From: an uncultured Pelagibacteraceae bacterium
Lineage (GTDB): Bacteria > Pseudomonadota > Alphaproteobacteria > Pelagibacterales > Pelagibacteraceae
Direction of reading: 5' to 3'
Assembly: GCA_902539745.1 (NCBI GenBank)
Contig: CACBKA010000005.1
Span: forward strand, 10,957-74,956
DNA: 64,000 bases
Position numbers and translations under genes: made by a program. Shown one piece after another: positions 4,741 through 56,694 of this stretch. Each line of letters opens with the position of its first letter. Within the stretch, counting starts at the first letter, position 1. A model generated the notes under the pieces. That model saw nothing but the letters and a program-made list of their open reading frames with translations. It was not told the DNA's origin and ran no database searches.

Positions 4741-4742
4741 TT

Positions 4743-42165: not shown

Positions 42166-42552
42166 ATGAAAAAAATTTTAGCTGAAATTTCTCTGGGCGA
42201 ATTAGCAGATAAACTTACTATTTTAGAGATCAAGCTCAAAAAAATAGAGGATAAAGAATCAATTAATATTATTAATAAGGAATATCAAAGTCTAAATAAT
42301 ATTGATTTAAAAGGTATAGATTTAAAAAAATACAAAGCCCTTTTTAATGAACTTAAGTCGGTAAACGAAAAACTGTGGGATATTGAAAATGAAAAAAGAT
42401 TATTGGAAAAAAATTCGCACTTTGAAGATAAATTTATTCAAGTTTCAAGAAATGTTCATTTCATGAATGATAAAAGAGCTAAAATTAAAAAAGAGATAAA
42501 TAGGACATTTGGATCAAATATTGAAGAAGTTAAAGAGTATACTAAGTACTAA
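42166..42552 (+). CDS. Conserved hypothetical helical protein (possibly DUF6165-like)
   Basis: 128 aa. GELADKLTILEIKLKKI ... NEKLWDIENEKR ... MNDKRAKIKKEIN. The family assignment is from memory only. Confidence 0.45.
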   Translation: MKKILAEISLGELADKLTILEIKLKKIEDKESINIINKEYQSLNNIDLKGIDLKKYKALFNELKSVNEKLWDIENEKRLLEKNSHFEDKFIQVSRNVHFMNDKRAKIKKEINRTFGSNIEEVKEYTKY

Positions 42553-43601
42553 GATTGATCTTTATTTAATAATGAAGAAGCAAAGTTCCATCTACAGTCG
42601 AAGCTAGGTATGAAAACCTCATCAAGTACAACATTACCAAAATTATTTTTTAATAAATCTAACCAATTTTTAACTTGCTTTGGTTTTTTTGACATGCAAC
42701 CCACTTGTGCTGTTAAAACACCATCCGGTTTTAAAATTCTTTTTAGACCTTTCATATTTTTAGCTGCTAGATTTATACAAAACTGATCATCATTTAGATC
42801 AACAAAAATTTTATCATATTTAGAATCTTTTACTTTTTTTATACTTTCAAAAGCATCCCCCCAATATGTTTTTACTTTATTGTTAGCTTTAGTATCTCCA
42901 CAAATTTTTGGAAGGTGTTTTTGACAAACTTTGACTACTTCAGGGTCTAGTTCATACCAATCAATTAAATCAAAGCCTTTTGATAACAATTCTCTTGCTA
43001 CGCCTCCGTCTCCACCGCCTATTATTGCGGCACTTGAGTTATTTTTTTGTAAATTCAGTGCGGAGGAAACAAATTGACTGCTATATTTTTTTTCATCTTT
43101 TTCTGCAACTTGCAATTCACTATCAATAAATAATGCGCATCCAAATTCCTCCAATTTAAGTATTTCAATATGCTGACCTGCTTTAGATACAAAGTTTTCT
43201 AAAGCATCAGTCACCACATAATATTTCTTGTGTCCAGGCGTACTATATATATCTTCATAAACTCCTTTGTTGCTTCTATCAAAACTTCTTACTACGGCTC
43301 TTTCATGTTTAATTTCTTCTTTTAAAATATCTAGTGCTGCAGTAGGTGAAATCTTACCACACGTAAAAAAATCGAAACTAATTATTCCCTTTTCAGGAAA
43401 AGTATGAAAACTCATATGGCTCTCTGCTAAGAGTGCTAAACAAGTATATCCCTGAGGTTTAAATATTTTTTCTGCGATGTTAAGGACTTCAATTTTGGCT
43501 TTTTTTGCTATTTTATATATAACCTTATTATAAAAATCTGGAGCGTAATCTCGTTTTACGCCTAAAAAATCTATCGTTACGTGTTCTCCAACTTTTTTCA
43601 T
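42549..43601 (-). CDS. Fusion of pyruvoyl-type S-adenosylmethionine decarboxylase (SpeD/SpeH) and spermidine synthase (SpeE)
   Basis: The N-terminal ~110 aa contain HVTIDFLG and the self-cleavage/pyruvoyl site LLAESHMSFHTFPEKG. The C-terminal ~230 aa contain the aminopropyltransferase motif IIGGGDGGVARELL. 350 aa. Confidence 0.8.
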   Translation of the reverse strand: MKKVGEHVTIDFLGVKRDYAPDFYNKVIYKIAKKAKIEVLNIAEKIFKPQGYTCLALLAESHMSFHTFPEKGIISFDFFTCGKISPTAALDILKEEIKHERAVVRSFDRSNKGVYEDIYSTPGHKKYYVVTDALENFVSKAGQHIEILKLEEFGCALFIDSELQVAEKDEKKYSSQFVSSALNLQKNNSSAAIIGGGDGGVARELLSKGFDLIDWYELDPEVVKVCQKHLPKICGDTKANNKVKTYWGDAFESIKKVKDSKYDKIFVDLNDDQFCINLAAKNMKGLKRILKPDGVLTAQVGCMSKKPKQVKNWLDLLKNNFGNVVLDEVFIPSFDCRWNFASSLLNKDQS

Positions 43602-43697
43602 TGTATCAACCTTTTTTAACGACTCTTTAATTTTTTAACTTGTTATTTAATTTTTTACAACTAAAAATATTCTTGTTAATAAAAAAGGAGATTGATT

Positions 43698-45731
43698 TTG
43701 AGAAACAATTGGTCAAACAAAATTGCAAACCGTTATGTAAAAAAGTACAAAAAACTTGGTTTTTCTAAGGATTTGGCTTTAAGAGTCTATACAACTCGTC
43801 TTCTTGGAAGAAATCCTGAACTTGTTCTTCATGGCGGGGGTAATACATCTGTAAAAACTACGATTAACGATATAGACGGAAAAAAATATAATGTTTTATG
43901 TGTTAAAGGTAGTGGTTGGGATATGGCAGACATTGAGCCACCTGGTCTTCCGGCAGTAAAATTAGATCCCCTTTTAAGTCTTAGAAAGAAAAAATATTTG
44001 TCAGACGAAGATATGGTTGCTTTTCAAAAAAGAAATTTAATAGATATTAAATCTCCAAATCCTTCTGTAGAAACATTTCTACATGCCTTCTTGCCTTATA
44101 AATATGTGGACCACACACATGCTGATGCTGTAATGAATGTAACTAATAGACCAGGAGGACTAAATTTAAGTAAAAAAATATTTGGAAAAAAAGCTAGCAT
44201 TGTTCCTTATGTAATGCCTGGTTTTATGTTAGCAAAAAAAGTGAATGAGGTTTATTCTGAAAATCCAGATATCGAATGTCTAATACTTATGAATCACGGA
44301 ATTTTTACTTTCTCTAATGATTGTAAAAGAGCTTATGATTTAATGATTAAATACGTTTCTAAGGCAGAAAGAGCTGTTAAAAAATTAAGATCAAAAAAAA
44401 TAAAACAAATTAAAAAAAATAATATTAAATTTAATCCACATGATATTGCACCGATAGTAAGAGGTCTTTTATCAGAAAATAAAGATCAAAAATTTGTGAT
44501 TAATTATAGATTAAATAAACATCTTAAATACTTCATAAATGGTAAAAATGTCAGAACTTATACCTCAAAAGGTACAGCAACACCTGATCACGTAATAAGG
44601 GTAAAGCCATTCCCTCTAATTATTACACCTAAAAAAAATTCATCTATAGATGATTTTAAAAAGACCGCAGAAAAAGCTTTTGATAATTATAGAAAAAAAT
44701 ATGTAAATTATTTCAAAGTAAATAGTAAAAAAGTTAAAGGTAAAAAAGTTATGTTAGATACTTCGCCAAGAGTGGTTCTTGTGCAAAATGTTGGTATGTT
44801 TAGCGTTGGTAAAGATCTTGGTTCAGCTAAAATAGCAGGCGACTTAACAGAAACTAATGCAAAAGTGATTAGTTCTGTCGAAGAAACTTCTACATATAAA
44901 TTTATACCTGAAAAAGATCTTTTTGATGTTGAATATTGGTCGTTGGAGCAAGCTAAAATTAAAAAAAAGAAAAAACTTTTAGAGGGAAATATTGTTGTTA
45001 TAACTGGAGCCACAGGAACAATTGGTTTTGAAACCTATAAAATATTTAAAAGTTACGGGGCAGAAGTTGTTTTGCTAGATAACGATCTTAATCGTTTAAA
45101 AGAAGTTCAATTGAAAATTAAAGACCTTTGTATACATTGCGATGTTACAAATAAAAAAAGTGTAAAAAGAGCCTTTAAAATAATTTGCGAAAAGTTTGGT
45201 GGGTTCGATATTTTAATATCAAATGCAGGGGCTGCACCTGGAGGAGAAATAGGTGAAGTAAGTGATGAGATATTAAGAAAAAGTTTTGAAATTAATTTTT
45301 TCTCCCATCAAAACTGTGCTTCAGAAGCAATTAAAATTATGAAAAAACAAAATATTAATGGTTGTTTATTGTTCAATATTTCAAAACAATCTGTCAATCC
45401 AGGAAAGAATTTTGGACCATACGGTTTACCTAAATCGGCTTTATTAAGTTTGTGTAAACAATATGCAGTTGATTATGGATCTATAGGTATTAGATCTAAT
45501 GGAGTGAATGCTGATAGAATAAAAAGTGGTCTAATGACTGGTAAAATGATTAAGACAAGAGCAAAAGCTAGATCTGTAAGTGCGGAGACATACATGAGAG
45601 GAAATTTATTATCTAATGAGGTAAAAGCTGAGGATGTAGCAAAAGCTTTTTTTCATCTTGCAGTTTCTAAAAAAACAACTGGAGCTGTGCTTACAGTTGA
45701 TGGTGGTAACATTGCTGCTTCTTTAAGGTAA
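43698..45731 (+). CDS. Bifunctional class II aldolase/adducin domain - short-chain dehydrogenase fusion (RhaD/YuxG-type)
   Basis: Aldolase part: HGGGNTSVK, PSVETFLHAF, VDHTHAD. SDR part: ITGATGTIG, NAGAAPGG, YGLPK (YxxxK). AAGGAG at 43685-43690 favours the TTG at 43698 over the TTG at 43692. Confidence 0.85.
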   Translation: MRNNWSNKIANRYVKKYKKLGFSKDLALRVYTTRLLGRNPELVLHGGGNTSVKTTINDIDGKKYNVLCVKGSGWDMADIEPPGLPAVKLDPLLSLRKKKYLSDEDMVAFQKRNLIDIKSPNPSVETFLHAFLPYKYVDHTHADAVMNVTNRPGGLNLSKKIFGKKASIVPYVMPGFMLAKKVNEVYSENPDIECLILMNHGIFTFSNDCKRAYDLMIKYVSKAERAVKKLRSKKIKQIKKNNIKFNPHDIAPIVRGLLSENKDQKFVINYRLNKHLKYFINGKNVRTYTSKGTATPDHVIRVKPFPLIITPKKNSSIDDFKKTAEKAFDNYRKKYVNYFKVNSKKVKGKKVMLDTSPRVVLVQNVGMFSVGKDLGSAKIAGDLTETNAKVISSVEETSTYKFIPEKDLFDVEYWSLEQAKIKKKKKLLEGNIVVITGATGTIGFETYKIFKSYGAEVVLLDNDLNRLKEVQLKIKDLCIHCDVTNKKSVKRAFKIICEKFGGFDILISNAGAAPGGEIGEVSDEILRKSFEINFFSHQNCASEAIKIMKKQNINGCLLFNISKQSVNPGKNFGPYGLPKSALLSLCKQYAVDYGSIGIRSNGVNADRIKSGLMTGKMIKTRAKARSVSAETYMRGNLLSNEVKAEDVAKAFFHLAVSKKTTGAVLTVDGGNIAASLR

Positions 45732-45737
45732 ATTTTA

Positions 45738-46211
45738 TTAATCGTTTAAAAGAACTGGGAAAACTGGTTTCATTTTTAAAAATAATCTTTGATATTCTTG
45801 TTTTATACATTTATTCATAATGCAAGTCAGTCCAGCGGATTTGGAGATCTCCTCAGCCTCATTGTTTTGAATTCCAAACTGTAGCCACAGTGTCTTGGCT
45901 CCAACTTTGATTGCATTTTTTGCTATATCGGGAGTTTCTTTGGATGGTCTAAAAACATTTACAATATCTATTTGTGAAGAAATATCCTCTAATTTTTCAA
46001 CTATTTTTTCTCCATTAACTTTTTTTCCAACTGAAAATGGATTTACAGGTATAACTTTATATCCAAATTCCAAAAGATATTTCATAACAATTATCGAGGG
46101 CTTTAGTCTCATTTTGGCAACTGCTTCATTTTCCTTAGGAACACTTGCTCCAACCATTGCTATGATTTTAGAAGTCTGAAGTGTTTCTTTAATTAAATTA
46201 TCTGATGTCAT
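45738..46211 (-). CDS. CoA-binding domain protein (YccU-like)
   Basis: 157 aa. IAMVGAS...GYKVIPVNP pattern. Confidence 0.7.
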   Translation of the reverse strand: MTSDNLIKETLQTSKIIAMVGASVPKENEAVAKMRLKPSIIVMKYLLEFGYKVIPVNPFSVGKKVNGEKIVEKLEDISSQIDIVNVFRPSKETPDIAKNAIKVGAKTLWLQFGIQNNEAEEISKSAGLTCIMNKCIKQEYQRLFLKMKPVFPVLLND

Positions 46212-46993
46212 TTATCTTTCCAATTTGGTTTTCTTTTCTCAATGAAAGCAGATATACCCTCTTTTGCATCAATGGCCATCATATTTTCACTCATAACTCG
46301 GCTTGTAAATTTATAGGCTTTATCTAAAGGCATTTCTAATTGCTTATAGAAAGCTTTTTTTCCAATTTTTACAATCTTTTTAGACTTTGAAGAAATATTT
46401 TCTGCTAACTTTACAACTTCCTCTTCTAAATTATCGTTGCTAAAATGATCATTAATTAAACCGATATCTTTAGCATGTTTAGCGCTAACTGGTTCACCTG
46501 TTAAAAGCATTCTCATTGCTTTCTTTCTTGCAACGTTTCTGCTTAAAGCAACCATTGGGGTACTGCAGAAAAGACCTATGTTAACTCCTGGTGTTGAAAA
46601 AATTGCATCGTCAGTACTCAATGCTAAATCACAGGTAGCAACTAATTGACAGCCTGCTGCAAATGCTGCACCATGCACTTTTGCAATAACTGGTTTATTG
46701 CAATTTATTATTACCATCATCAGCTCAGAGCATAATTCAAATAGTTTTTTATAATTTGGTTTGCCTTTTAAAGATTTTACCTCTTTCAAATTATGACCAG
46801 CGCTAAATCCCTTTCCTGAACCTTCAATAATGATAACTCTAGTTTTTTGATCTTTATCAAGCTCTTTAAATCTACTTATTAATGATTTCAACATACTAGT
46901 TGATAAAGAATTATATGTTCCTGGATCGTTTAATTTTAGTCTAGTTATACCGCTATTTGATCCTTGTAAAATTGTATAAGAATTGTTTTTCAT
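46208..46993 (-). CDS. Enoyl-CoA hydratase/isomerase (crotonase) family protein
   Basis: 261 aa. VIIIEGSGKGFSAGHNLKE and HGAAFAAGCQLV oxyanion-hole segments. Confidence 0.85.
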   Translation of the reverse strand: MKNNSYTILQGSNSGITRLKLNDPGTYNSLSTSMLKSLISRFKELDKDQKTRVIIIEGSGKGFSAGHNLKEVKSLKGKPNYKKLFELCSELMMVIINCNKPVIAKVHGAAFAAGCQLVATCDLALSTDDAIFSTPGVNIGLFCSTPMVALSRNVARKKAMRMLLTGEPVSAKHAKDIGLINDHFSNDNLEEEVVKLAENISSKSKKIVKIGKKAFYKQLEMPLDKAYKFTSRVMSENMMAIDAKEGISAFIEKRKPNWKDK

Positions 46994-48060
46994 TTAAATA
47001 AACTTTCTAATCCCTCAATTGATGCATTACAAACACCTTTTTCTGTGATTAGGCCGGTTACATATTTGGCCGGGGTAATATCAAATGCTAAATTCATTGA
47101 TTGACTTTTTTCTGGATAAATTAGAACTTTTGTTAATTTATTATTTTTATCTAACCCCTCTACATGGGAGAGTTCTTCAGAATTTCTTTCTTCGATTGGA
47201 ATATCCTTAGAATTTTTTATATTCCAATCTATTGTTGAACTAGGCAATGCCACATAAAAGGGTACCTTATTATCATGTGCAGCAAGAGCTTTTAGATAAG
47301 TTCCAATTTTATTACAAACATCCCCGTTAGATAAAGTTCTGTCAGTTCCAACTATACACATATCTACTTGTCCTCTTTGCATTAAAATACCACCTGCATT
47401 ATCAGTAATTATTGTATTTGATATTCCCTCCTCATTTAGTTCATATGATGTAAGATTGGCCCCTTGGTTTCTAGGTCTTGTTTCGTCTACCCAAACATGA
47501 ACTTTAATACCTTTTTTATGTGCATGATATATTGGAGAAGTTGCAGTTCCCCAATCAATAGTTGCCAACCAACCAGCGTTACAATGAGTTAAGATATTTA
47601 TCGTGTCTTTCTTTTTTTTAGATATTTCTTCAATTATTTTTAAACCATTGAGTCCTATGTTTTTACAAAAACCAATATCTTCTTCACAAATATTTTTTGC
47701 TTCTTTTATAGCAATATTTAAAATTTCCTCACTATTAACTCCGGATAATTTTTTCATCATTCTATCAACTGCCCATTTTAGATTTATTGCAGTTGGTCTT
47801 GAATTGATCAGATCTTCACCCGATTTTTTTAAAAAAGACTGATCATTCTTTTCAATTATTGATAAAACTAATCCGTATGCTGCTGTTGCTCCAATTAATG
47901 GCGCTCCTCTCACTTCCATATTTTTAATCGCAAGAATTGCGTCTTTAACACTTTTTAATTCTTTTATAATAAATTGATGTGGAAGTTTTGTTTGGTCAAT
48001 TATTTTAACAATATTATTATCAAACCATATAGTTCTAAATGCTTTTCCGTTTATATTCAT
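46990..48060 (-). CDS. mtnA: S-methyl-5-thioribose-1-phosphate isomerase
   Basis: 356 aa. eIF-2B-related fold. MEVRGAPLIGATAAYG and VGTDR motifs. Confidence 0.9.
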   Translation of the reverse strand: MNINGKAFRTIWFDNNIVKIIDQTKLPHQFIIKELKSVKDAILAIKNMEVRGAPLIGATAAYGLVLSIIEKNDQSFLKKSGEDLINSRPTAINLKWAVDRMMKKLSGVNSEEILNIAIKEAKNICEEDIGFCKNIGLNGLKIIEEISKKKKDTINILTHCNAGWLATIDWGTATSPIYHAHKKGIKVHVWVDETRPRNQGANLTSYELNEEGISNTIITDNAGGILMQRGQVDMCIVGTDRTLSNGDVCNKIGTYLKALAAHDNKVPFYVALPSSTIDWNIKNSKDIPIEERNSEELSHVEGLDKNNKLTKVLIYPEKSQSMNLAFDITPAKYVTGLITEKGVCNASIEGLESLFK

Positions 48061-48975: not shown

Positions 48976-49503
48976 ATGGATTTAAAAGAATATATAAGAT
49001 CAATTCCTGACTACCCTAAAAAAGGCATACTGTTCAGAGATATTACTACTTTAATAAAAGATTCAAAGGCATTCAACTACTCAATTGATAAAATTGTAGA
49101 AATTTCAGAGAAATTAAATTTCGATAAAATAGCGGCTATAGAATCAAGAGGTTTTGTTTTTGCTTCGGCAGTCTCCTATAAGTTGAAAAAACCTTTCATA
49201 ATGTTGAGAAAAAAAAATAAATTACCTGCTGGAAAAATTTCAGTAGATTTTCAATTGGAATATGGAACAGCAACATTAGAAGTCCATAAGGATTCTATTA
49301 GCTCTGGGGAAAGAGTATTAATAATAGATGACCTAATTGCTACTGGAGGAACCGCAGAAGCTGGTGCTAAATTAGTTGAAATGTCTAAAGGGAAAGTTGC
49401 AGGATTTATTTTTATTATAAACTTATTTGATTTAGGTGGAAATAAAAAACTGAACGAAAAGTCTTATTTTACTAAAAGTTTAATAGAATTTCCTGGTCAC
49501 TAA
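48976..49503 (+). CDS. apt: Adenine phosphoribosyltransferase
   Basis: PRPP loop VLIIDDLIATGGT and N-terminal IPDYPKKGILFRDIT. 175 aa. Confidence 0.9.
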   Translation: MDLKEYIRSIPDYPKKGILFRDITTLIKDSKAFNYSIDKIVEISEKLNFDKIAAIESRGFVFASAVSYKLKKPFIMLRKKNKLPAGKISVDFQLEYGTATLEVHKDSISSGERVLIIDDLIATGGTAEAGAKLVEMSKGKVAGFIFIINLFDLGGNKKLNEKSYFTKSLIEFPGH

Positions 49504-49506
49504 AAA

Positions 49507-50394
49507 TTAATTTAACTTAAGTAAAAAGTTTTGAATGTAATTTTTAAGCTCAATTTTACCAAAGTATTTATATACTTTATTTGAAAGACTTTTATTTGTA
49601 AGCGCAGAAGCATATCTTTCACCTTTGCGTTTAGGCAAATATCTAATTTTTGTGTTAAACATTTTTGCAACTTCTTTAATTGAATGTTCCTTTTTGTTAG
49701 CAATGCTATAATGCCTACATAATTTTCTTTTCCAGGCCATATAACAAACATCAACAGTATCAAATATATGTGTAAACCTCCTTGTTTGTGTACCAGGTTT
49801 TACAACAGGAAGAGATTTTCTTTTTTTATAATGATTCTCGAAGATGCCGATAACAGTGGCCATCTCTCCTTCACAAATCTGATATGGACCATAAACATTG
49901 TAAAAGTAAATTACTTCATATTTAAAATTAAACCATTTTTTTAAATTTTCTAATAATTCTAAATTTTTTGCTTTTGTGAATGCATAAGGGGATAAGTTTT
50001 TGTCATTACCTTTATTACCTAAAGAAGCTGAAGTAGCAGAGTAAATAAGTTTTATTTTATTTTTTAAACAAAAATTAAAGACAGCATTGGTACCTACCGA
50101 ATTTGAATTAATACATTGATTCATTTTCTTAAAACTTTGATATATTCTTGCAAATTCACCAAAATGAAACACAGCAATTATTTCTCTCGGATTTTTTATT
50201 ATTTCAGCGATATTCTTAGTGTTACCTCTATAGTATTTTACTCTATTATTTCTTATGTGATTATTTTTTGTGCCTGATGAATAATCATCAATACTAATAA
50301 TTTTAAATTTTGTTTTTTTCAAAAGAAGGTTTATTAAATTAGTCCCGACAAATCCAGCACCGCCTGTTACTAAAATATTCTTAATTTTTGGCAT
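49507..50394 (-). CDS. NAD-dependent sugar-nucleotide epimerase/dehydratase (extended SDR; UXS/GalE-like)
   Basis: VTGGAGFVGTNL and YAFTK (YxxxK). 295 aa. Confidence 0.75.
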   Translation of the reverse strand: MPKIKNILVTGGAGFVGTNLINLLLKKTKFKIISIDDYSSGTKNNHIRNNRVKYYRGNTKNIAEIIKNPREIIAVFHFGEFARIYQSFKKMNQCINSNSVGTNAVFNFCLKNKIKLIYSATSASLGNKGNDKNLSPYAFTKAKNLELLENLKKWFNFKYEVIYFYNVYGPYQICEGEMATVIGIFENHYKKRKSLPVVKPGTQTRRFTHIFDTVDVCYMAWKRKLCRHYSIANKKEHSIKEVAKMFNTKIRYLPKRKGERYASALTNKSLSNKVYKYFGKIELKNYIQNFLLKLN

Positions 50395-50497
50395 TCAAGA
50401 TTTATATTTTAAAAATTGATTAAATCAACAATTGATTTTAACAAGTAATTCTTTTACTAATTAAATATATTAGATCATTTCTTTTTAAAATTTATAT

Positions 50498-51529
50498 ATG
50501 AGGAAAATCATAGTAACAGGTGGTCAGGGTTTTATTGGTAGTAATTTGGTAGAGTTTTTATTAGAAAAGAACTACTTTGTTATAAATATTGATAAATCGA
50601 ATTACTCAGCAAATCCCTACAATGTTAAAGATTTTAAAAAAAATAAAAAATATATTTTTTATAAATTAGATATAAACAATAAAACCAAACTCTTAAAAAT
50701 TATTAAAAAATTCAAACCTGATGGTATTTTCAATCTTGCAGCTGAAACGCATGTAGATAGATCGATAGATAGCCCATACGCATTTTTAAAAACTAACATA
50801 ATGGGTGTTTTTAATATTTTAGAAACTCTAAGATCTTTTAATAAAAAAAATAAAAAAGTCATTAAACTTATTCATGTTTCAACTGATGAAGTTTATGGTG
50901 ATATTCCAAAACATAAACAAGTTAACGAAGATTATAATTATAATCCAAGCTCTCCCTATTCTGCATCTAAAGCTGCTGCTGATCAATTATTGAAAGCATA
51001 CTTCAGAACCTATTCATCTAAAATAGTAATAGCAAATGCATGTAATAATTATGGCCCAAGACAATTACCAGAAAAATTTATTCCAAAAATTATTTATAAT
51101 ATTTTAAAGAATAAATCTATACCCCTTTATGGAAAGGGCACTAATGTAAGGGAGTGGATCTATGTAAAAGATAACTGTGAAGCTTTACTTAAAATTTTTT
51201 TAAAAGGTAAAATAGGAAGAAATTATAATATTGGTACTGGAAAAAGAATAAAAAATATTGAAATAATTAAAAATATTTTAAGTATTGCAAAAAAAAATAA
51301 AGTTAAATTTTCAAATAAATTAAAGATTAAATATGTAAAAGATAGACCAGGTCATGACAAAAGATATGCGGTAAATTCAAATAAAATTAGAAATGAACTA
51401 AACTGGAAACCAAAAATATCACTTTCGGTTGGGTTAAATAAAACTTTAAGGTGGTATGTGACTAACAAAAAGTTTTTTGAACAAATTTCAAAAAAAAATA
51501 TAAATAAAAGGTTTGGACTTAAAATTTGA
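50498..51529 (+). CDS. rfbB: dTDP-glucose 4,6-dehydratase-type enzyme
   Basis: VTGGQGFIGSN, STDEVYGD and YSASKAAAD motifs. 343 aa. Confidence 0.85.
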   Translation: MRKIIVTGGQGFIGSNLVEFLLEKNYFVINIDKSNYSANPYNVKDFKKNKKYIFYKLDINNKTKLLKIIKKFKPDGIFNLAAETHVDRSIDSPYAFLKTNIMGVFNILETLRSFNKKNKKVIKLIHVSTDEVYGDIPKHKQVNEDYNYNPSSPYSASKAAADQLLKAYFRTYSSKIVIANACNNYGPRQLPEKFIPKIIYNILKNKSIPLYGKGTNVREWIYVKDNCEALLKIFLKGKIGRNYNIGTGKRIKNIEIIKNILSIAKKNKVKFSNKLKIKYVKDRPGHDKRYAVNSNKIRNELNWKPKISLSVGLNKTLRWYVTNKKFFEQISKKNINKRFGLKI

Positions 51530-53073
51530 TATCAGAAAAAAATAATAAGATAGTATATTTAATAATTATTTTAACTTGTGTTTTTTTAAGTTTCTCACAT
51601 TCTTTATATCAGGTAGCAATAAATGGCGGTTTGACATTATCCGAGATAATTAAATATCCCGAACCTTTATCTCCGATGAAATACTACTATCATAATAGTT
51701 GGACATTGTTACACCAATTTGCTGAAATTTTATTAAATTCTGGATTATCTATAAATAATAGCTCAAGAGCAATTCTTTTTCTTTCTACTTTATGTTTTGG
51801 AATAAGCTCATTTTTAATTGTAAATAAACTAACCTTTAATAAATATTTGGCACTTCTTGTAAGTATATTAATGCTTATTTTACAAAAAAATTTTGGGGAC
51901 ACTGATTATCCCTCTCTTATTTTTTCTAATCAAAGTTATGGCATGTTTAGTTTGGCTCTTACATCTTTAATTTTTAGTTTGATTTTAAATGAAAATTTTA
52001 AATATTCAGGCTTTTTCACACTTTTATTAATTTCTGTACATCCTGTTGTTGGTTTTTGGATGTTATCAATATTAGTAATAAGTTTAATAATTTATAAAGA
52101 TAAAAAGATAAGTTTAGAATTTTTTAAAGGTGGTTCTTTCGGACTAGTCATAACATTGCTAAGCCTTTTTTTCTTTTACAGCAATTATATCGAAAAAGTA
52201 GAGTTTGATAGTAGTTTTTATAAAATTTATATGGAACTCTGGGATGGCCATAGGAATTTATCTGGGATAGTCCATTATGAATATTTAATAAAGACTTTAT
52301 TGTTGTTTGCTACATTAAATACTTATTATTTTTTACAAAAGAATAAACAAAAAAATTTTTTTCATTTAATAATAAATTTGTCTATTACGTTTTCCACGAT
52401 ATTTTATCTTTCTTATAAGTTTTTTCCAAATTTATTTCCAGATATTTTTATCAGATTAATGCCAACAAGATTTTTGATATTACACTCATATATTGGATGG
52501 CCTTTAATTATTTCAATTATATATTTTATTTTTTTAAAGTTAAATTCTATTAAAAAATTTGTTCAGATTTTTATTTTTGCAGTTTTAATTATTCACTCAA
52601 TTCAACATTATAAAAAATTTATTTTTTTAAAAAATAACTTTATAATAAATATATCTAAGGAGGATAAACTTTATAATTTTGATATTTTTAAAGAAATATC
52701 AAAATTAGACTATAAAGGATATTTTATTACTTCATCAGACACAGTAAATTACGTAAATCAATATTCATTAAAACCAGTTTTATTGGATACACAATCATTG
52801 GATTTTCTTCCTTATCACCCATATCTTATTAAAGTTTCATTTGAAATACTTGAGGATATTTATGATGTTCAAATGAATAATCCACCAAATAAAAATGATC
52901 CGCGTATTCCAAATGAATTTATAAAAAAAAGTTTTGAGGCAAAAAATAAATCTGATTGGGAATATATTAAAAAAAAATATAATGCAAATTATGTAATAGT
53001 TCCAAAGAATTGGAAAATAAATTTAAATTTATTGAATAGTAATAATTTTTATTCTATTTATCAAATCGAATAA
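51526..53073 (+). CDS. Large polytopic membrane protein, candidate GT-C-type glycosyltransferase or polymerase
   Basis: 515 aa: ten or more hydrophobic helices followed by a soluble tail of roughly 150 aa. 4-nt overlap with rfbB. Lies next to a GtrB/ArnC-like GT2 gene. No family motif recognised. Confidence 0.5.
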   Translation: MISEKNNKIVYLIIILTCVFLSFSHSLYQVAINGGLTLSEIIKYPEPLSPMKYYYHNSWTLLHQFAEILLNSGLSINNSSRAILFLSTLCFGISSFLIVNKLTFNKYLALLVSILMLILQKNFGDTDYPSLIFSNQSYGMFSLALTSLIFSLILNENFKYSGFFTLLLISVHPVVGFWMLSILVISLIIYKDKKISLEFFKGGSFGLVITLLSLFFFYSNYIEKVEFDSSFYKIYMELWDGHRNLSGIVHYEYLIKTLLLFATLNTYYFLQKNKQKNFFHLIINLSITFSTIFYLSYKFFPNLFPDIFIRLMPTRFLILHSYIGWPLIISIIYFIFLKLNSIKKFVQIFIFAVLIIHSIQHYKKFIFLKNNFIINISKEDKLYNFDIFKEISKLDYKGYFITSSDTVNYVNQYSLKPVLLDTQSLDFLPYHPYLIKVSFEILEDIYDVQMNNPPNKNDPRIPNEFIKKSFEAKNKSDWEYIKKKYNANYVIVPKNWKINLNLLNSNNFYSIYQIE

Positions 53074-53080
53074 TCTTAAA

Positions 53081-54016
53081 TTATTTTTTATAGTCTTTAA
53101 TATCTTTTATAACGTATCTTGTTCTACCTTTTGTTTGTTCAAAAATTCTTGCTAAGTAAATTCCCATTATTCCAATAGTTGATAATAGAGCTCCTGAAAA
53201 AAAAGATATTACAATTAAAATTCCGGTTGTACCGGGTACAGCAATTCCTGATACTTTTGCATAAAAAGCATAAATGATTAATAATATTGAAAAAAGAAAA
53301 GCAAAAAATCCCAACAATACGCCCAGGTAAAGTGGTTTTAATGAATAACTAGTAACACCCCTTATAAATTGAGTTACTGGTCCTTCAGCAAACAATGAAA
53401 ATTTAGATTCTCCTGCCTCTCTTGCTTCTCTAACATAATCTACATAAGTTTGCTTAAAGCCAACCCAAACGGATAAGCCACGAATATATGGATTATATTC
53501 TTTTTGCTCTAAAATTTTATCTAAAGCTCTTTTAGATATCAATTTAAAGTCTCCTACATCTTTTTCTAAATTTATATCTGATAATTTGTGAATAATCGTG
53601 TAAGCAATATTTGTAAAAAATAATTTAAATTTTGGCTCTCCTAACCTTTTCGTTCTTTTCGTGTGAACAATATCAAAACCTTTTTCATGTTGTTTTACTA
53701 ATTCGGTAATTAGTTCAGGTGGGTCTTGAAGATCTGAGTCCATGTAGATTATACAATCACCCGAGCAATTTTCAAAACCAGCTAAAACACATGGGTTAGT
53801 TCCAAATCTTCTAGACATGTTAATAATTTTTATTGGAAATTGTTTCTGTAAATCTAATAATATATTTTCAGAATTATCAGTTGAATCATCATTCACAAAT
53901 ATCAACTCATAATCCCAATTTTGAGTTTTTTTAACTGATTTGTGAACTCTATCAATAAGACTTTTTAAATTTTTCTCTTCGTTTCTAAATGAAAAAACAA
54001 AAGAAATTAATTTCAT
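53081..54016 (-). CDS. GT2 polyprenyl-phosphate glycosyltransferase (GtrB/ArnC/DPM1-like)
   Basis: FVNDDSTDNS and YMDSDLQDPPE motifs plus two C-terminal TM helices. 311 aa. Confidence 0.8.
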   Translation of the reverse strand: MKLISFVFSFRNEEKNLKSLIDRVHKSVKKTQNWDYELIFVNDDSTDNSENILLDLQKQFPIKIINMSRRFGTNPCVLAGFENCSGDCIIYMDSDLQDPPELITELVKQHEKGFDIVHTKRTKRLGEPKFKLFFTNIAYTIIHKLSDINLEKDVGDFKLISKRALDKILEQKEYNPYIRGLSVWVGFKQTYVDYVREAREAGESKFSLFAEGPVTQFIRGVTSYSLKPLYLGVLLGFFAFLFSILLIIYAFYAKVSGIAVPGTTGILIVISFFSGALLSTIGIMGIYLARIFEQTKGRTRYVIKDIKDYKK

Positions 54017-54084
54017 AATATTTGAATAAAAGACTATTTAATAATATCTTAAAATGATAAAAAAAGTAACCATAGAATATCAAA

Positions 54085-55272
54085 ATGCACTCTTTAGATT
54101 TAGTAGTTTTAGCTGGAGGTAAAGGTTCTAGAATTAAATACCTTCTAAAAAAGAAAGCTAAACCAATGGCTATTTTTAACAAAAAACCATTCATAGAATA
54201 TATTATACAGAATTATAGTAAATATCGTTTTAAAAATATCTTTCTACTAACTGGTTACAAATCTAAGGAAATAATAAATAAATTTCATAAGAAGTACTAC
54301 AATTTCACGTTAATAAATTGTCTTAAAGAAAAAAAGCTTATGGGTACAGGTGGTGCTCTTAATATTTTAAAGAAAAAAAAATTAAACGATTTTATTTTAA
54401 TTAATGGGGATACATTTCTTAATGTTGATTTGAGTAAATTAATTAAATCGTGCAGTAGAAATAGTTTTGGATCCCTTTGTTTGGTAAAAAGTAAATCATA
54501 TAAATCAAATAGGAAATTAATAACTATGGGTTTAAAGCAAGGAAGAATTGTTTTTAAAAATTCAGGTGGCTTCATGAATGGAGGTGTATATTTCTTTAAA
54601 AAAAAAATTTTGAAACTCATTAAAAATAAAAACCTCTCTTTAGAAAATGAGATTTTACCGAATTTAATAAATAAGAAAAAAATTTCAGGAATTGTTGCAA
54701 GCAGTTTCTTTTTAGATATCGGTACACCTATTAATTTTAAGAGAGCAAAAAAACTTTTGATTAAAAATTGTTCAAAACCTGCTGCGTTCTTAGATAGAGA
54801 TGGTGTAATAAATTATGATACCGGTTACGTTCATAAAATTAGAGATTTTAAATTTAGACCCGGAGTTATTGAAGGATTAAAATTATTAATAAAAAGGAAT
54901 TACTTTATTTTCATTGTTACAAATCAAGCAGGAATTGGTAAAGATATCTTTTCAAAAAGTGAGTTTTATAGACTGCATAATCAAATAAAAGAAAAACTTC
55001 AAAATAAAAATATATTTTTTGATGATGTAAATTACTGTCCATATCATCCAAAGGCAAAATTAAAAAAATATAGAAAAAAAACCGAACTAAGAAAACCAGG
55101 AAATTTAATGATACGTCAAATTAAAAAAAAGTGGCATATAAAAGACAGTGGTAGTTTTATGATTGGGGATAAAATTTCCGACAAAATTTGCGCTAAAAAA
55201 AGTAAGTTGTATTTTGAATTTGCAGAAAGAAATTTTCTTAATCAAATTAAAAGAATTACCAAACGAAGCTAG
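54085..55272 (+). CDS. Fusion of sugar-1-phosphate nucleotidyltransferase (HddC/RmlA-like) and D,D-heptose 1,7-bisphosphate phosphatase (GmhB, HAD)
   Basis: N-terminal part: VVLAGGKGSRI and LMGTGGAL. C-terminal part: FLDRDGVIN, TNQAGIGK, YCPYHP, RKPGNLM, GDKISD (GmhB signature set). 395 aa. Confidence 0.8.
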   Translation: MHSLDLVVLAGGKGSRIKYLLKKKAKPMAIFNKKPFIEYIIQNYSKYRFKNIFLLTGYKSKEIINKFHKKYYNFTLINCLKEKKLMGTGGALNILKKKKLNDFILINGDTFLNVDLSKLIKSCSRNSFGSLCLVKSKSYKSNRKLITMGLKQGRIVFKNSGGFMNGGVYFFKKKILKLIKNKNLSLENEILPNLINKKKISGIVASSFFLDIGTPINFKRAKKLLIKNCSKPAAFLDRDGVINYDTGYVHKIRDFKFRPGVIEGLKLLIKRNYFIFIVTNQAGIGKDIFSKSEFYRLHNQIKEKLQNKNIFFDDVNYCPYHPKAKLKKYRKKTELRKPGNLMIRQIKKKWHIKDSGSFMIGDKISDKICAKKSKLYFEFAERNFLNQIKRITKRS

Positions 55273-56204
55273 TAATTATTTATAATTTTTTTATTATCCG
55301 TACTAAATAAATCAATTAATTCTTCAATGCCTTGTTCCAAAGATGCTTTTGCTTTAAAGCCTTTTTTTTCAATTTTTTTATTACTTACAAAATAATCTCT
55401 TTTGTCTGGATCTTTTCTGTTTGTAATAATTTTAATTTTAAGTTTATTCATTTTTTTCTTTATTTTTTTTGCTAACATAAGTTTACTTATATTTGCAGAT
55501 GAAAGTCCCAAATTATAAATATTTGATTTTAATTTATTAAAATTTTTTATCGCGTAAATTATTCCTAAAACTACATCCTTAATATGTATAAAATTTCTTC
55601 TAAAATGAGGTTCGAAAATTGTTAGTTTTTTTGTTTTTACTGATTTATAAACAAAGTTATTTACTAATAAATCTGTTCTCATTCTATAACTGTATCCAAA
55701 AACTGTTGCTAATCTGAAGCAAATAAAATTTTTAGATTTTTTTACCTCTTCCTCTGCATCGCATTTTGTTCTACCGTAAAGTGATATTGGGTTTAAAGGA
55801 CTGTTTTCATCACAAAATTTATTTTTTTCTCCAACTCCATATCCAGAATTGGTAGTTAAAAATATTATTTTATTTTTTTTTGAGCTCAAAGATACAAGAT
55901 TTTTAATTGAATGGTGATTTACTGATATTGCATCTTTCTTATATTTATCACACAAAGGAGCACCGACTAAAGCAGCTAATGGTATTATAAATTCATTTTT
56001 TTTAAGTAAAGATTTTAATAATTTTTTATCTCGGACATCTTTTTTTATTAATTTAAAATTTTTAAAGTAATAAAGATGATTTAGTGATCCTCTATCATAT
56101 TTCATCAAATCTAAAACAGTAACTTTATGGCCTAAATTAACAAGGGCTGTGGATAGCATTGATCCAACATATCCTCCCCCACCAGTTATTAAAATTTTAC
56201 TCAT
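55269..56204 (-). CDS. NAD-dependent sugar-nucleotide epimerase/reductase (extended SDR)
   Basis: ITGGGGYVGS and YGRTK (YxxxK). 311 aa. Last gene of the operon. Confidence 0.75.
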   Translation of the reverse strand: MSKILITGGGGYVGSMLSTALVNLGHKVTVLDLMKYDRGSLNHLYYFKNFKLIKKDVRDKKLLKSLLKKNEFIIPLAALVGAPLCDKYKKDAISVNHHSIKNLVSLSSKKNKIIFLTTNSGYGVGEKNKFCDENSPLNPISLYGRTKCDAEEEVKKSKNFICFRLATVFGYSYRMRTDLLVNNFVYKSVKTKKLTIFEPHFRRNFIHIKDVVLGIIYAIKNFNKLKSNIYNLGLSSANISKLMLAKKIKKKMNKLKIKIITNRKDPDKRDYFVSNKKIEKKGFKAKASLEQGIEELIDLFSTDNKKIINNY

Positions 56205-56205
56205 T

Positions 56206-56694
56206 TTACAAATATTTTGAAGTTCTATCCCTTTTACTTAGAATTGGTTTTCTTATTGGCCATTTAATTTTAAATTTTGGGTCATTCCATCTGTAACTTT
56301 TTTGTTTATTTGAGTCTACATATTTTCCTTTATAAGACCATTTGTAATGAAAAACACATTTATTAGATAAACATAAATAGGCATTGGCAAAATGTGGTGG
56401 TATTAATATTAAAGTTGGTTTTTCATGTTTTAGGAACCAGCTTTTATGTTTTAAATAATTTTTTGATTTTTTCTCCATATTTACAACAACAAAAAAAACT
56501 TTTCCATAAGTGCATGTTACCAATTTCCAAGACTTAAAATCACAATGCAAACCTCGTAAAACATTTTTGTTTGAAATGGAAAACTTATCATGATTAAATT
56601 TAAGTTTCCGTAAAATACCTTTTTTCCACGTTGTCCAATAAAAACCTCTCTTGTCTCTAAAAGTAGAATTTTTTATAACTTTAAGTTTAATCAT
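56206..56694 (-). CDS. RmlC-like sugar-nucleotide 3,5-epimerase (cupin)
   Basis: FRDKRGFYWTTW and VLRGLHCD motifs. I place the start at ATG 56694, giving a 4-nt ATGA overlap with the upstream gene (the track uses 56721). Confidence 0.7.
   Translation of the reverse strand: MIKLKVIKNSTFRDKRGFYWTTWKKGILRKLKFNHDKFSISNKNVLRGLHCDFKSWKLVTCTYGKVFFVVVNMEKKSKNYLKHKSWFLKHEKPTLILIPPHFANAYLCLSNKCVFHYKWSYKGKYVDSNKQKSYRWNDPKFKIKWPIRKPILSKRDRTSKYL

What the first reader, a model, noticed from the sequence alone, without database searches (positions are those of the whole stretch)
43698..45731. Class II aldolase-SDR fusion as a candidate one-protein DHAP shunt step for methylthioribulose-1-phosphate
Seen in sequence: a 677-679-aa protein with an N-terminal class II aldolase/adducin-type domain (HGGGNTS, HTHAD) and a C-terminal SDR domain (TGATGTIG, YGLPK). 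It lies between the MTA-producing SpeD-SpeE fusion and the mtnP-mtnA operon.

Established knowledge:
- This architecture is characterised in Bacillus (RhaEW/YuxG) as rhamnulose-1-P aldolase plus lactaldehyde dehydrogenase.
- MtnB and the DHAP-shunt aldolase Ald2 belong to the same class II aldolase family.
- Ald2 cleaves methylthioribulose-1-P to DHAP and 2-(methylthio)acetaldehyde, which is then reduced to 2-(methylthio)ethanol.

Inference: here the fusion may cleave methylthioribulose-1-P (and 5-deoxyribulose-1-P from radical SAM by-products) and immediately oxidise or reduce the aldehyde. No rhamnose catabolic genes are nearby.
Basis: partly seen in the sequence, partly recalled or inferred. 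Interest (0 to 1): 0.65.

Follow-up and report, generated by a model that had tools for sequence, protein, structure and literature searches.

The report
Fused aldolase-dehydrogenase for methylthioadenosine disposal
This SAR11 (Pelagibacter) gene encodes a two-domain enzyme that most likely finishes the breakdown of methylthioadenosine and 5'-deoxyadenosine, the waste of polyamine synthesis and radical-SAM reactions, by splitting the sugar phosphate and at once converting the aldehyde released; it is not a rhamnose enzyme, despite how databases label it.

Summary
Window 43698..45731 (+) encodes a 677-aa protein (679 aa from an upstream TTG). It has an N-terminal class II aldolase domain and a C-terminal classical SDR domain, and all the quoted motifs are present. 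It lies between a SpeD-SpeE fusion and an mtnP-mtnA operon in a Candidatus Pelagibacter genome.

- The protein belongs to a clade (NCBIfam NF006192, 885 bits, cut-off 639) separate from true RhaEW (TIGR02632, 435 bits, cut-off 568).
- Of 75 non-SAR11 genomic loci of this clade, 41 carry mtnA, mtnP or mtnK within 10 kb. In 25 of these, mtnA or mtnP lies directly upstream on the same strand (mtnP-[apt]-mtnA-fusion).
- Rhizobia have a second architecture: regulator, fusion, sugar ABC transporter, mtnK-mtnA.
- No rhamnose genes occur in any of these loci or in the window.
- One Shinella replicon carries both paralogs, one in a complete rha locus and the target-like one beside mtnK-mtnA.

The enzyme is therefore most likely a non-orthologous, fused replacement of the DHAP-shunt aldolase Ald2. 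The direction of the redox step is unresolved; homology to RhaW favours NAD+-dependent oxidation. No biochemistry exists. Rated a new variant of a known kind.

The parts
43698..45731 (+). Bifunctional class II aldolase / short-chain dehydrogenase gene (677 aa; alternative TTG start at 43692 gives 679 aa)
   Evidence: ORF. NF006192 885 bits against cut-off 639; TIGR02632 435 bits against cut-off 567.75. Homologs are mostly 677 aa.
43685..43690 (+). Shine-Dalgarno-like AAGGAG, 7 nt upstream of the TTG at 43698
   Evidence: Read directly from the sequence.
43788..44363 (+). Class II aldolase domain (residues 33-224 of the 679-aa form). Putative catalytic residues in 677-aa numbering: E125, and Zn ligands H139, H141 and H200.
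   Evidence: Pfam PF00596 75.5 bits. PDB 3m4r E = 9e-52. H139, H141 and H200 are conserved at 95% or more in the target's clade and 90% or more in the RhaEW set. These and E125 are invariant in alignment A2; one RhaEW sequence has Asp at the E125 position.
44991..45707 (+). Classical SDR domain (residues 434-672 of the 679-aa form). In 677-aa numbering: TGxxGxIG at 436-443, D461 at the end of strand beta-2 (NAD preference), S562, Y575, K579.
   Evidence: Pfam PF13561 and PF00106. Residue conservation. Foldseek matches to NAD-dependent SDRs (low-confidence model).
42549..43601 (-). SpeD-SpeE fusion (SAM decarboxylase + aminopropyltransferase), which produces MTA. It is divergent from the target with a 96-bp spacer to the TTG at 43698.
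   Evidence: Pfam and NCBIfam. Divergent neighbour in 9 of 9 SAR11 loci, 86-103 bp away. The SAR11 SpeE fusion is described in PMC8437039.
48057..48932 (-). mtnP, MTA phosphorylase (first step: MTA to adenine + methylthioribose-1-P)
   Evidence: TIGR01694 319 bits against cut-off 275.
46990..48060 (-). mtnA, methylthioribose-1-P isomerase (makes the proposed substrate, methylthioribulose-1-P)
   Evidence: TIGR00512 421 bits against cut-off 279.
48976..49503 (+). apt, adenine phosphoribosyltransferase (salvages the adenine released by MtnP)
   Evidence: TIGR01090 208 bits against cut-off 186. Co-located in 14 of the 84 loci.
45738..46993 (-). CoA_binding_2 protein (45738..46211) and enoyl-CoA hydratase (46208..46993). 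They lie between the target and mtnA and are probably NOT part of the system.
   Evidence: Among the 9 SAR11 loci they are found only in L001. In L046, L059 and L074, mtnA ends 8-10 bp from the fusion gene.

Best explanation
The gene encodes the terminal enzyme of a dihydroxyacetone-phosphate (DHAP) shunt for 5'-deoxynucleoside by-products of SAM.

**Steps shown by annotation**
1. SpeD-SpeE makes spermidine and 5'-methylthioadenosine (MTA).
2. MtnP phosphorolyses MTA to adenine, which Apt recycles, plus methylthioribose-1-P. It probably acts on 5'-deoxyadenosine as well.
3. MtnA isomerises that product to methylthioribulose-1-P, or to 5-deoxyribulose-1-P.

**Steps inferred**
4. The N-terminal Zn-dependent class II aldolase domain cleaves the ketose-1-phosphate into DHAP plus 2-(methylthio)acetaldehyde, or acetaldehyde.
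5. The fused NAD-type SDR domain converts the reactive aldehyde at once.

By homology to RhaW, I commit to NAD+-dependent oxidation, giving 2-(methylthio)acetate or acetate. I put this at about 60:40 over reduction to 2-(methylthio)ethanol or ethanol.

The enzyme replaces the separate Ald2 aldolase and the still-unidentified aldehyde-converting enzyme of the known shunt. It does so without being an Ald2 orthologue.
For: **1. A separate clade from RhaEW.** The target passes NF006192 and fails TIGR02632. In a neighbour-joining tree of representatives, true RhaEW proteins (P0219 at 790 bits, P0180 at 726 bits on TIGR02632) fall in a different group.

**2. Gene linkage outside SAR11.**
- Of 75 non-SAR11 loci of this clade, 41 have mtnA, mtnP or mtnK within the flanks held (at most 10 kb each side).
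- In 25 of them, mtnA or mtnP lies less than 300 bp upstream on the same strand.
- A single-copy gene should fall in such a window in roughly 0.5% of cases (my estimate).
- The adjacent genes pass the MtnA and MtnP equivalog cut-offs.

**3. Three independent architectures.**
- mtnP-[apt]-mtnA-fusion in Rhodospirillales-type genomes.
- SorC-type regulator, fusion, sugar ABC transporter, then mtnK-mtnA in 14 rhizobial-type loci (MtnK TIGR01767 at 497 bits, cut-off 275).
- Convergent fusion/mtnA-mtnP in SAR11.
- The linkage is scattered over the whole clade in the tree.

**4. No rhamnose genes.** No RhaI, RhaK, RhaU, RhaS or E. coli RhaA/B/D/M/T homologs occur in the window or in these loci. A true RhaEW in Paracoccus sits in a complete rha locus.

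**5. Both paralogs on one replicon.** Shinella oryzae NZ_CP132315.1 holds two copies that are 33% identical. One lies in the rha locus and the target-like one beside mtnK-mtnA.

**6. Catalytic residues.** The putative Zn ligands H139/H141/H200, the catalytic E125, the SDR residues S562/Y575/K579 and the NAD-type D461 are all conserved.

**7. Precedent.** RhaEW couples aldol cleavage to NAD+-dependent aldehyde oxidation and is inactive with NADH (PMC3870299).

**8. Expression.** The locus is represented in seawater metatranscriptomes.
Against: - No enzyme of this clade has been assayed. Everything rests on gene context and homology.
- About 45% of non-SAR11 loci show no mtn gene within reach. 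Three members of the P0122 sub-clade are lone genes.
- L016, the sister lineage of the SAR11 clade in the tree, has the fusion in an operon with an FGGY sugar kinase, an SDR and an Fe-ADH-like gene, and no mtn genes. The clade may therefore not be isofunctional.
- The aldolase domain is very distant from Ald2, DrdA, FucA and MtnB, so substrate cannot be transferred by homology.
- Characterised DHAP shunts end in the alcohol, not the acid (PMC10986504, PMC13474568).
- SAR11 genomes are highly syntenic, so the SAR11 arrangement alone is weak evidence.
- The tree is neighbour-joining without support values.
- The 80 loci are the best matches to one query, so they are biased towards Alphaproteobacteria.
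- I could not check whether SAR11 has another enzyme that consumes methylthioribulose-1-P.
Confidence: 0.72

Rival explanations
1. Reductive sub-variant (nested within the best explanation; its probability is part of the 0.72). The aldolase step is the same, but the SDR uses NAD(P)H to reduce 2-(methylthio)acetaldehyde to 2-(methylthio)ethanol, or acetaldehyde to ethanol, as in the R. rubrum and E. coli shunts.
For: The known DHAP shunts yield 2-methylthioethanol, and the responsible reductase is still unidentified (PMC13474568; PMC10986504, listing). SDRs are usually alcohol/carbonyl oxidoreductases (PDB matches).
Against: The only characterised homologue, RhaEW, oxidises the aldehyde with NAD+ and is inactive with NADH. 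The Asp at the end of strand beta-2 (D461) is conserved, which indicates NAD rather than NADPH. This last point is my inference from the standard SDR classification.
Confidence: 0.28
2. Aldolase/dehydrogenase for a different or broader set of (deoxy)ketose-1-phosphates, for example products of an FGGY kinase. The mtn linkage would then reflect only one of several uses, or general handling of deoxy-sugars.
For: L016 has an operon with an FGGY kinase, an SDR, an Fe-ADH-like gene and ABC transporter parts. Other members are lone genes in unrelated contexts. About 45% of loci are unlinked. Class II aldolases are known to be promiscuous (PMC6302742).
Against: The mtn linkage recurs in three architectures and across the whole clade. 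In SAR11 no sugar kinase lies in the neighbourhood: the genes at 41.2-49.5 kb were all annotated, and rhamnulokinase-type FGGY queries find nothing in the window. MtnK and MtnP already supply the 1-phosphate.
Confidence: 0.12
3. The N-terminal domain acts as an MtnB-like dehydratase and the SDR reduces the diketone. This would be a non-canonical methionine salvage that keeps the sulfur in a methionine precursor.
For: MtnB shares the class II aldolase fold and acts on the same substrate (PMC6302742). SAR11 needs reduced sulfur, so true salvage would be useful. The sulfur requirement is from my own knowledge and was not checked here.
Against: The N-domain matches no MtnB model at E <= 1e-6. Its only characterised relative is an aldolase. 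No acireductone dioxygenase, enolase-phosphatase or transaminase family appears among the 25 commonest Pfam families around 14 linked loci. No such chemistry is known.
Confidence: 0.06
4. Ordinary RhaEW: rhamnulose-1-P aldolase plus lactaldehyde dehydrogenase, as the JGI label 'rhamnose utilization protein RhaD' implies.
For: The domain architecture is the same, with about 30% identity to RhaEW-clade proteins. JGI names say so.
Against: The protein is below the TIGR02632 and NF006189 cut-offs. It falls in a separate clade. [quoted passage not shown] A separate true RhaEW paralog coexists in Shinella.
Confidence: 0.03

Closest known systems
RhaEW / YuxG (TIGR02632; B. subtilis, Chloroflexus aurantiacus; rhizobial 'RhaD')
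   Same: Both have a class II aldolase domain, a middle region of about 200 residues and a classical SDR domain. The catalytic His, Tyr and Lys residues and the NAD-type Asp are the same. The logic is probably the same too: aldol cleavage coupled to immediate conversion of the aldehyde.
   Different: Identity is only about 30-33%. The target is below the equivalog cut-off and in a different clade. Its genomic partners are mtnP/mtnK-mtnA rather than rhaI/rhaK/rhaU/rhaSTPQ. Clade-specific substitutions lie in the SDR domain: L526/W, Q538/F, Q564/N, P578/A.
DHAP shunt: MtnP or MtnN+MtnK, MtnA, Ald2/DrdA (R. rubrum, R. palustris, ExPEC E. coli, B. thuringiensis)
   Same: The upstream genes are the same (mtnP or mtnK, then mtnA), often in one operon with the aldolase. 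The predicted products are the same: DHAP plus a C2 aldehyde. Like E. coli, the rhizobial version has its own regulator, and it adds a transporter. This suggests uptake of methylthioribose or 5-deoxyribose.
   Different: Ald2 and DrdA are stand-alone class II aldolases; I recall their length as roughly 200-220 aa, which I did not check here. In this system the aldolase domain belongs to the RhaE-like lineage. By sequence it is not detectably related to any solved class II aldolase except 3m4r, and it matches only fusion-family models in NCBIfam. It is also covalently fused to the aldehyde-converting enzyme, which is still unidentified in the known shunt.
PDB 3m4r (Thermoplasma acidophilum, 'N-terminal class II aldolase domain of a conserved protein')
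   Same: It is the best structural and sequence relative of the N-domain (E = 9e-52, 40% identity, TM 0.79).
   Different: It is uncharacterised, so it says nothing about substrate.

Membership tests
Class II aldolase/adducin N-terminal domain (PF00596) | Profile match above the gathering score | tested here: met
   75.5 bits against cut-off 22.2, residues 33-224.
Class II aldolase/adducin N-terminal domain (PF00596) | HxH plus a third His (metal ligands) and a catalytic Glu | tested here: met
   H139, H141 and H200 are conserved at 95% or more in 84 clade members and 90% or more in 16 RhaEW-clade sequences. These and E125 are invariant in alignment A2. Their roles are assigned by analogy, and metal binding itself cannot be tested here.
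Classical short-chain dehydrogenase/reductase | TGxxxGxG cofactor motif, Ser-Tyr-Lys catalytic residues, profile match | tested here: met
   PF13561 at 123.5 bits and PF00106 at 107.4 bits. T436, G437, G443, S562, Y575 and K579 are conserved.
NCBIfam NF006192 (PRK08324.1-6, 'bifunctional aldolase/short-chain dehydrogenase', function unnamed) | Whole-protein score above the curated cut-off | tested here: met
   885.3 bits against cut-off 639, and it is the best-scoring model.
RhaEW (TIGR02632 RhaD_aldol-ADH / NF006189) | Score above the equivalog cut-off | tested here: not met
   435.3 bits against cut-off 567.75, and 417.1 against 634. True members score 726-790 bits.
RhaEW (TIGR02632 RhaD_aldol-ADH / NF006189) | Encoded within a rhamnose utilisation locus (isomerase, kinase, mutarotase, transporter) | tested here: not met
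   tblastn with RhaI, RhaK, RhaU, RhaS and E. coli RhaA/B/D/M/T finds nothing in the window or in loci of the clade. The positive controls L086 and L089 are found.
RhaEW (TIGR02632 RhaD_aldol-ADH / NF006189) | Rhamnulose-1-P cleavage coupled to NAD+-dependent lactaldehyde oxidation | not testable with these tools
   This needs an enzyme assay.
DHAP shunt (functional system) | Aldolase gene clustered with mtnA and with mtnP or mtnK | tested here: met
   Met in the window and in 41 of 75 non-SAR11 loci, 25 of them directly adjacent on the same strand. MtnA, MtnP and MtnK pass their equivalog cut-offs.
DHAP shunt (functional system) | The aldolase is an Ald2/DrdA-type orthologue | tested here: not met
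   The N-domain alone matches only fusion-family models in NCBIfam. By phmmer at E <= 10 it matches only 3m4r among class II aldolases in the PDB; I recall that FucA, RhaD, MtnB and DrdA structures are deposited, and none was reported. No Ald2 sequence was available for a direct comparison.
DHAP shunt (functional system) | Cleaves methylthioribulose-1-P and 5-deoxyribulose-1-P to DHAP plus an aldehyde | not testable with these tools
   This needs an enzyme assay.
MtnB (methylthioribulose-1-P dehydratase) | Match to MtnB family models; clustering with mtnC/mtnD or mtnW/mtnX | tested here: not met
   No MtnB model is matched at E <= 1e-6. No ARD or HAD family is among the 25 commonest Pfam families in 14 linked loci (families seen only once beyond the first 25 were not shown).

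The most novel reading that the evidence does not exclude
The clade defines an oxidative DHAP shunt. A single polypeptide turns methylthioribulose-1-P into DHAP plus 2-(methylthio)acetate, and 5-deoxyribulose-1-P into DHAP plus acetate, while gaining NADH. SAR11 is often described as the most abundant marine heterotroph. On this reading, SAR11 and many soil and rhizosphere Alphaproteobacteria would dispose of, or grow on, MTA, methylthioribose and 5-deoxyribose in this way. They would release or further metabolise methylthioacetate, an organosulfur compound not yet considered in the marine sulfur cycle.
Probability: 0.4. Interest if true: 0.75.

Novelty: new variant of a known kind. Interest (0 to 1): 0.66.

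Why it matters
**1. SAR11 metabolism.** The finding would say what happens to MTA in SAR11. These cells make polyamines with the adjacent SpeD-SpeE fusion and live in water into which Prochlorococcus exudes MTA (bioRxiv 10.1101/2024.02.09.579562). None of the SAR11 papers I could search names a step after MtnA.

**2. A candidate for the unidentified step of the DHAP shunt.** It points to a candidate for the aldehyde-converting step, which a 2026 review still calls unknown (PMC13474568). It also shows that the aldolase step has been recruited twice within the class II aldolase fold.

**3. Annotation.** Thousands of database entries are currently labelled 'rhamnose utilization protein RhaD' and would be corrected.

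**4. A testable rhizobial locus.** The rhizobial arrangement (regulator, ABC transporter, mtnK-mtnA, fusion) predicts uptake of and growth on methylthioribose or 5-deoxyribose. This can be tested directly in tractable strains.

Tried and rejected
- **Rfam scan of the whole window for a SAM riboswitch or other RNA upstream of the gene.** No match at gathering scores. The 96-bp spacer was not searched at relaxed thresholds.
- **AlphaFold2 with a 19-sequence alignment.** The model is poor (mean pLDDT 65, pTM 0.41). I used it only to confirm the two folds and not for the active-site pocket.
- **Neighbourhoods of three P0122-clade members**. They are lone genes and uninformative.
- **De novo ORF clustering of the 84 loci**. 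High-GC genomes gave spurious antisense ORFs (clusters 5, 6, 11, 23). I replaced it with tblastn using defined queries, plus a Pfam census.
- **Enoyl-CoA hydratase and CoA-binding genes as downstream pathway steps.** Rejected, because they are absent from this position in the other SAR11 lineages.
- **Literature.** Eight full-text searches found no paper linking an aldolase-SDR fusion to mtnA, MTA or SAR11. North et al. 2020 (PMC7237333), the main survey of DHAP-shunt distribution, is not held. Prior mention there cannot be excluded.
- **Direct phylogeny against Ald2 and MtnB.** The N-domain is also too distant for phmmer to find any characterised class II aldolase among solved structures.
Full report
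**1. What is there**

The window has about 30% G+C. The closest proteins are named Candidatus Pelagibacter, so the organism is a SAR11 bacterium.

A single ORF runs from 43692 to 45731 on the + strand. It begins TTG ATT TTG. An AAGGAG at 43685-43690 sits 7 nt before the second TTG (43698) and only 1 nt before the first. Almost all close homologs are 677 aa.

Pfam finds Aldolase_II at residues 33-224 and adh_short/adh_short_C2 at 434-672. All four quoted motifs are in the translation.

- A divergent SpeD-SpeE fusion at 42549..43601 (-).
- On the other side, converging on the target, the overlapping genes mtnP, mtnA, an enoyl-CoA hydratase and a CoA_binding_2 protein.
- apt beyond mtnP.

Seawater metatranscriptome contigs at 95% identity or more cover the target and its neighbours. 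These are assembler contigs, so they show presence, not expression level.

**2. Which family**

NCBIfam places the protein in NF006192, 'bifunctional aldolase/short-chain dehydrogenase' (885 bits, cut-off 639). It falls below the cut-offs of the two rhamnulose-1-P aldolase/SDR models: TIGR02632 (435 against 567.75) and NF006189 (417 against 634).

An exhaustive search of cluster representatives found 781 relatives at E < 1e-30. In a neighbour-joining tree of 96 full-length representatives, the target falls in one large group. Sampled members of that group score best on NF006192, NF006195 or NF006193. Proteins that pass TIGR02632 (P0219 at 790 bits, P0180 at 726 bits) lie in another group, together with the NF006194 and NF006196 clades.

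The N-terminal 261 residues on their own match only the fusion-family models in NCBIfam. Among solved structures they match only 3m4r, an uncharacterised Thermoplasma domain (E = 9e-52). No FucA, RhaD, MtnB or DrdA chain appears even at E <= 10. So the aldolase domain belongs to the RhaE-like lineage and is not an Ald2 or MtnB orthologue.

**3. The decisive evidence: gene context outside SAR11**

SAR11 genomes are strongly syntenic, so the SAR11 arrangement alone proves little. I scanned one genome per GTDB species with an alignment of the target's group. This returned 80 loci with flanks of up to 10 kb. They are mostly diverse Alphaproteobacteria, with Nitrospinaceae and one Verrucomicrobiae. 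I also used four loci fetched earlier.

tblastn with the window's own proteins gave these results:
- An MtnA homolog occurs in 42 of 84 loci and MtnP in 31.
- Among the 75 non-SAR11 loci, 41 have mtnA, mtnP or mtnK in the flanks.
- In 25 of those, mtnA or mtnP ends less than 300 bp upstream of the fusion gene on the same strand.
- Typical layouts are mtnP-mtnA-fusion (L013, L020, L023, L039) and mtnP-apt-mtnA-fusion (L008, L014, L018, L025).
- The adjacent genes pass the MtnA and MtnP equivalog cut-offs.

By my rough estimate, a single-copy gene would fall within 10 kb either side of another gene in about 0.5% of genomes of around 4 Mb.

A second architecture occurs in Mesorhizobium, Rhizobium, Pararhizobium, Chelativorans, Hoeflea and relatives, 14 loci in all. 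It consists of a SorC/DeoR-like sugar-binding regulator, the fusion gene, a divergent sugar ABC transporter (binding protein, permease, ATPase), and then mtnK-mtnA. MtnK scores 497 bits on TIGR01767 against a cut-off of 275.

SAR11 provides a third architecture. All 9 SAR11 loci have SpeD-SpeE divergent at 86-103 bp, and 7 of 9 have mtnA downstream and convergent. In L046, L059 and L074, mtnA ends only 8-10 bp from the fusion gene.

In a tree of the 84 homologs, mtn-linked loci are scattered through the whole group rather than confined to one branch.

A Pfam census of 129 neighbouring ORFs from 14 linked loci shows cytochrome bc1 genes, IF-2B (MtnA) and PNP_UDP_1 (MtnP) as the commonest families. 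No acireductone dioxygenase, HAD phosphatase or second aldolase appears in the 25 families listed.

**4. Rhamnose is excluded**

tblastn with RhaI, RhaK (FGGY), RhaU and RhaS from a true RhaEW locus (Paracoccus), and with E. coli RhaA, RhaB, RhaD, RhaM and RhaT, finds nothing in the window. In the loci of the target's group it finds only a 20%-identical FGGY kinase in L016 and weak similarities between binding proteins.

Rodionova et al. state that RhaEW orthologs are always encoded within rha loci (PMC3870299).

The cleanest contrast is one Shinella oryzae replicon (NZ_CP132315.1) that carries both paralogs, 33% identical to each other:
- One lies among RhaK, RhaU, RhaS, DeoR and RhaI.
- The other is 46.5% identical to the SAR11 protein and lies among the SorC-type regulator, the ABC transporter, mtnK and mtnA.

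**5. Mechanism**

*Shown by annotation.* SpeD-SpeE makes MTA. MtnP, MtnA and Apt convert it to methylthioribulose-1-P and AMP.

*Inferred.* The aldolase domain cleaves methylthioribulose-1-P to DHAP and 2-(methylthio)acetaldehyde. It very probably also cleaves 5-deoxyribulose-1-P, since known shunt enzymes take both substrates with similar efficiency (PMC13474568). The SDR domain then converts the aldehyde.

The putative Zn ligands H139, H141 and H200 are conserved in both the target's group and RhaEW. E125 is invariant in the target's group, although one RhaEW sequence has Asp there. The SDR residues Y575 and K579 and the Asp at the end of strand beta-2 (D461) are likewise conserved in both groups, and S562 is invariant in alignment A2 (Ser or Thr at that position in the RhaEW sequences shown).

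RhaEW oxidises lactaldehyde with NAD+, shows no activity with NADH, and needs NAD+ for net cleavage. I therefore favour oxidation to methylthioacetate or acetate, at about 60:40. The characterised shunts end in methylthioethanol instead.

Positions that differ consistently between the two groups include several in the SDR domain: L526/W, Q538/F, Q564/N and P578/A. This fits a different aldehyde substrate but proves nothing.

The structure prediction was too poor (pLDDT 65) to examine the pockets.

**6. Caveats**

- About 45% of non-SAR11 loci have no mtn gene in reach. These include Reyranella, the Nitrospinaceae, part of the Stellaceae and three P0122-clade members.
- L016, the nearest outgroup of the SAR11 clade in the tree, has the fusion in an operon with an SDR, an FGGY kinase (XylB-like, below cut-off), an Fe-ADH-like protein and ABC transporter parts. 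Some members may therefore cleave other ketose-1-phosphates.
- The trees are neighbour-joining without support values.
- The 80 loci are the best matches to one query.
- I could not examine a whole SAR11 genome for Ald2, MtnB or a RuBisCO-like protein.
- No member of the clade has been assayed.

**7. Novelty**

The DHAP shunt and the RhaEW architecture are both known. The new point is that a separate clade of the fusion serves the shunt.

NCBI gives the family no specific function, and JGI calls it a rhamnose protein. Eight full-text searches found no paper making the link. Beaudoin et al. 2018 do not mention such a fusion. A 2026 review still lists the aldehyde-reducing enzyme as unknown. North et al. 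2020 could not be read.

I rate it a new variant of a known kind, with interest about 0.66. A specialist would find it plausible rather than astonishing. It does fill a gap in the metabolism of a very abundant marine bacterium, and it can be tested directly.

Noticed in passing
window 45738..46993 (-): A CoA_binding_2 protein (157 aa) and an enoyl-CoA hydratase (NF006008, 370 bits against cut-off 313) are joined to mtnA by 4-bp overlaps. Among the 9 SAR11 loci they are found only in L001. Elsewhere mtnA abuts the fusion gene. They look like a lineage-specific insertion into the mtnP-mtnA transcription unit, and their role is unknown.
   Followed up: partly
L001 14367..15545 (-): In a SAR11 genome whose fusion protein is 91% identical to the target, a 392-aa ORF is inserted between mtnA and mtnP. 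It has no Pfam entry on record and no NCBIfam match at E <= 1e-20.
   Followed up: partly
L085 18820..21883; also L022 and L081: In Pararhizobium and two other rhizobial-type loci, mtnK-mtnA is followed by a split transketolase (DXS-N-like plus transketolase-C) and a RuBisCO-like protein. The latter is closest to MtnW (195 bits, cut-off 409). This may be a second, uncharacterised branch for methylthioribulose-1-P next to the fusion gene.
   Followed up: partly
L016 3740..12031 (+): A marine single-cell genome (AG-904-K09), sister to the SAR11 clade in the tree, has the fusion as the last gene of a tight same-strand cluster. The cluster holds an unknown 530-aa protein, an SDR, an FGGY kinase, an Fe-ADH/glycerol-1-P-dehydrogenase-like protein and a UgpC-like ATPase, with no mtn genes.
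   Followed up: partly
window 45652..45802: The target and the CoA-binding gene converge with only 6 bp between their stop codons. Metatranscriptome contigs (for example X2, 45652-45802) span the junction, so transcripts seem to read through into the opposing gene.
   Followed up: no
window ~50000..58000: G+C drops to 24-26%, against about 30% elsewhere. By eye, the ORFs here look like sugar epimerase/dehydratase, glycosyltransferase and polytopic membrane proteins. This may be a variable cell-surface glycosylation island. It was not annotated with profiles.
   Followed up: no
L006, L008, L012, L013, L025, L065 and others, upstream of mtnP: In many Rhodospirillales-type genomes the mtnP-(apt)-mtnA-fusion cluster lies directly downstream of the cytochrome bc1 genes (Rieske, cytochrome b, cytochrome c1).
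   Followed up: no
window 2321..6554 (-): A pirin, a sulfatase-family protein (526 aa) and two glycosyltransferases (GT8, GT17) lie in a row next to a TRAP transporter DctM subunit.
   Followed up: no
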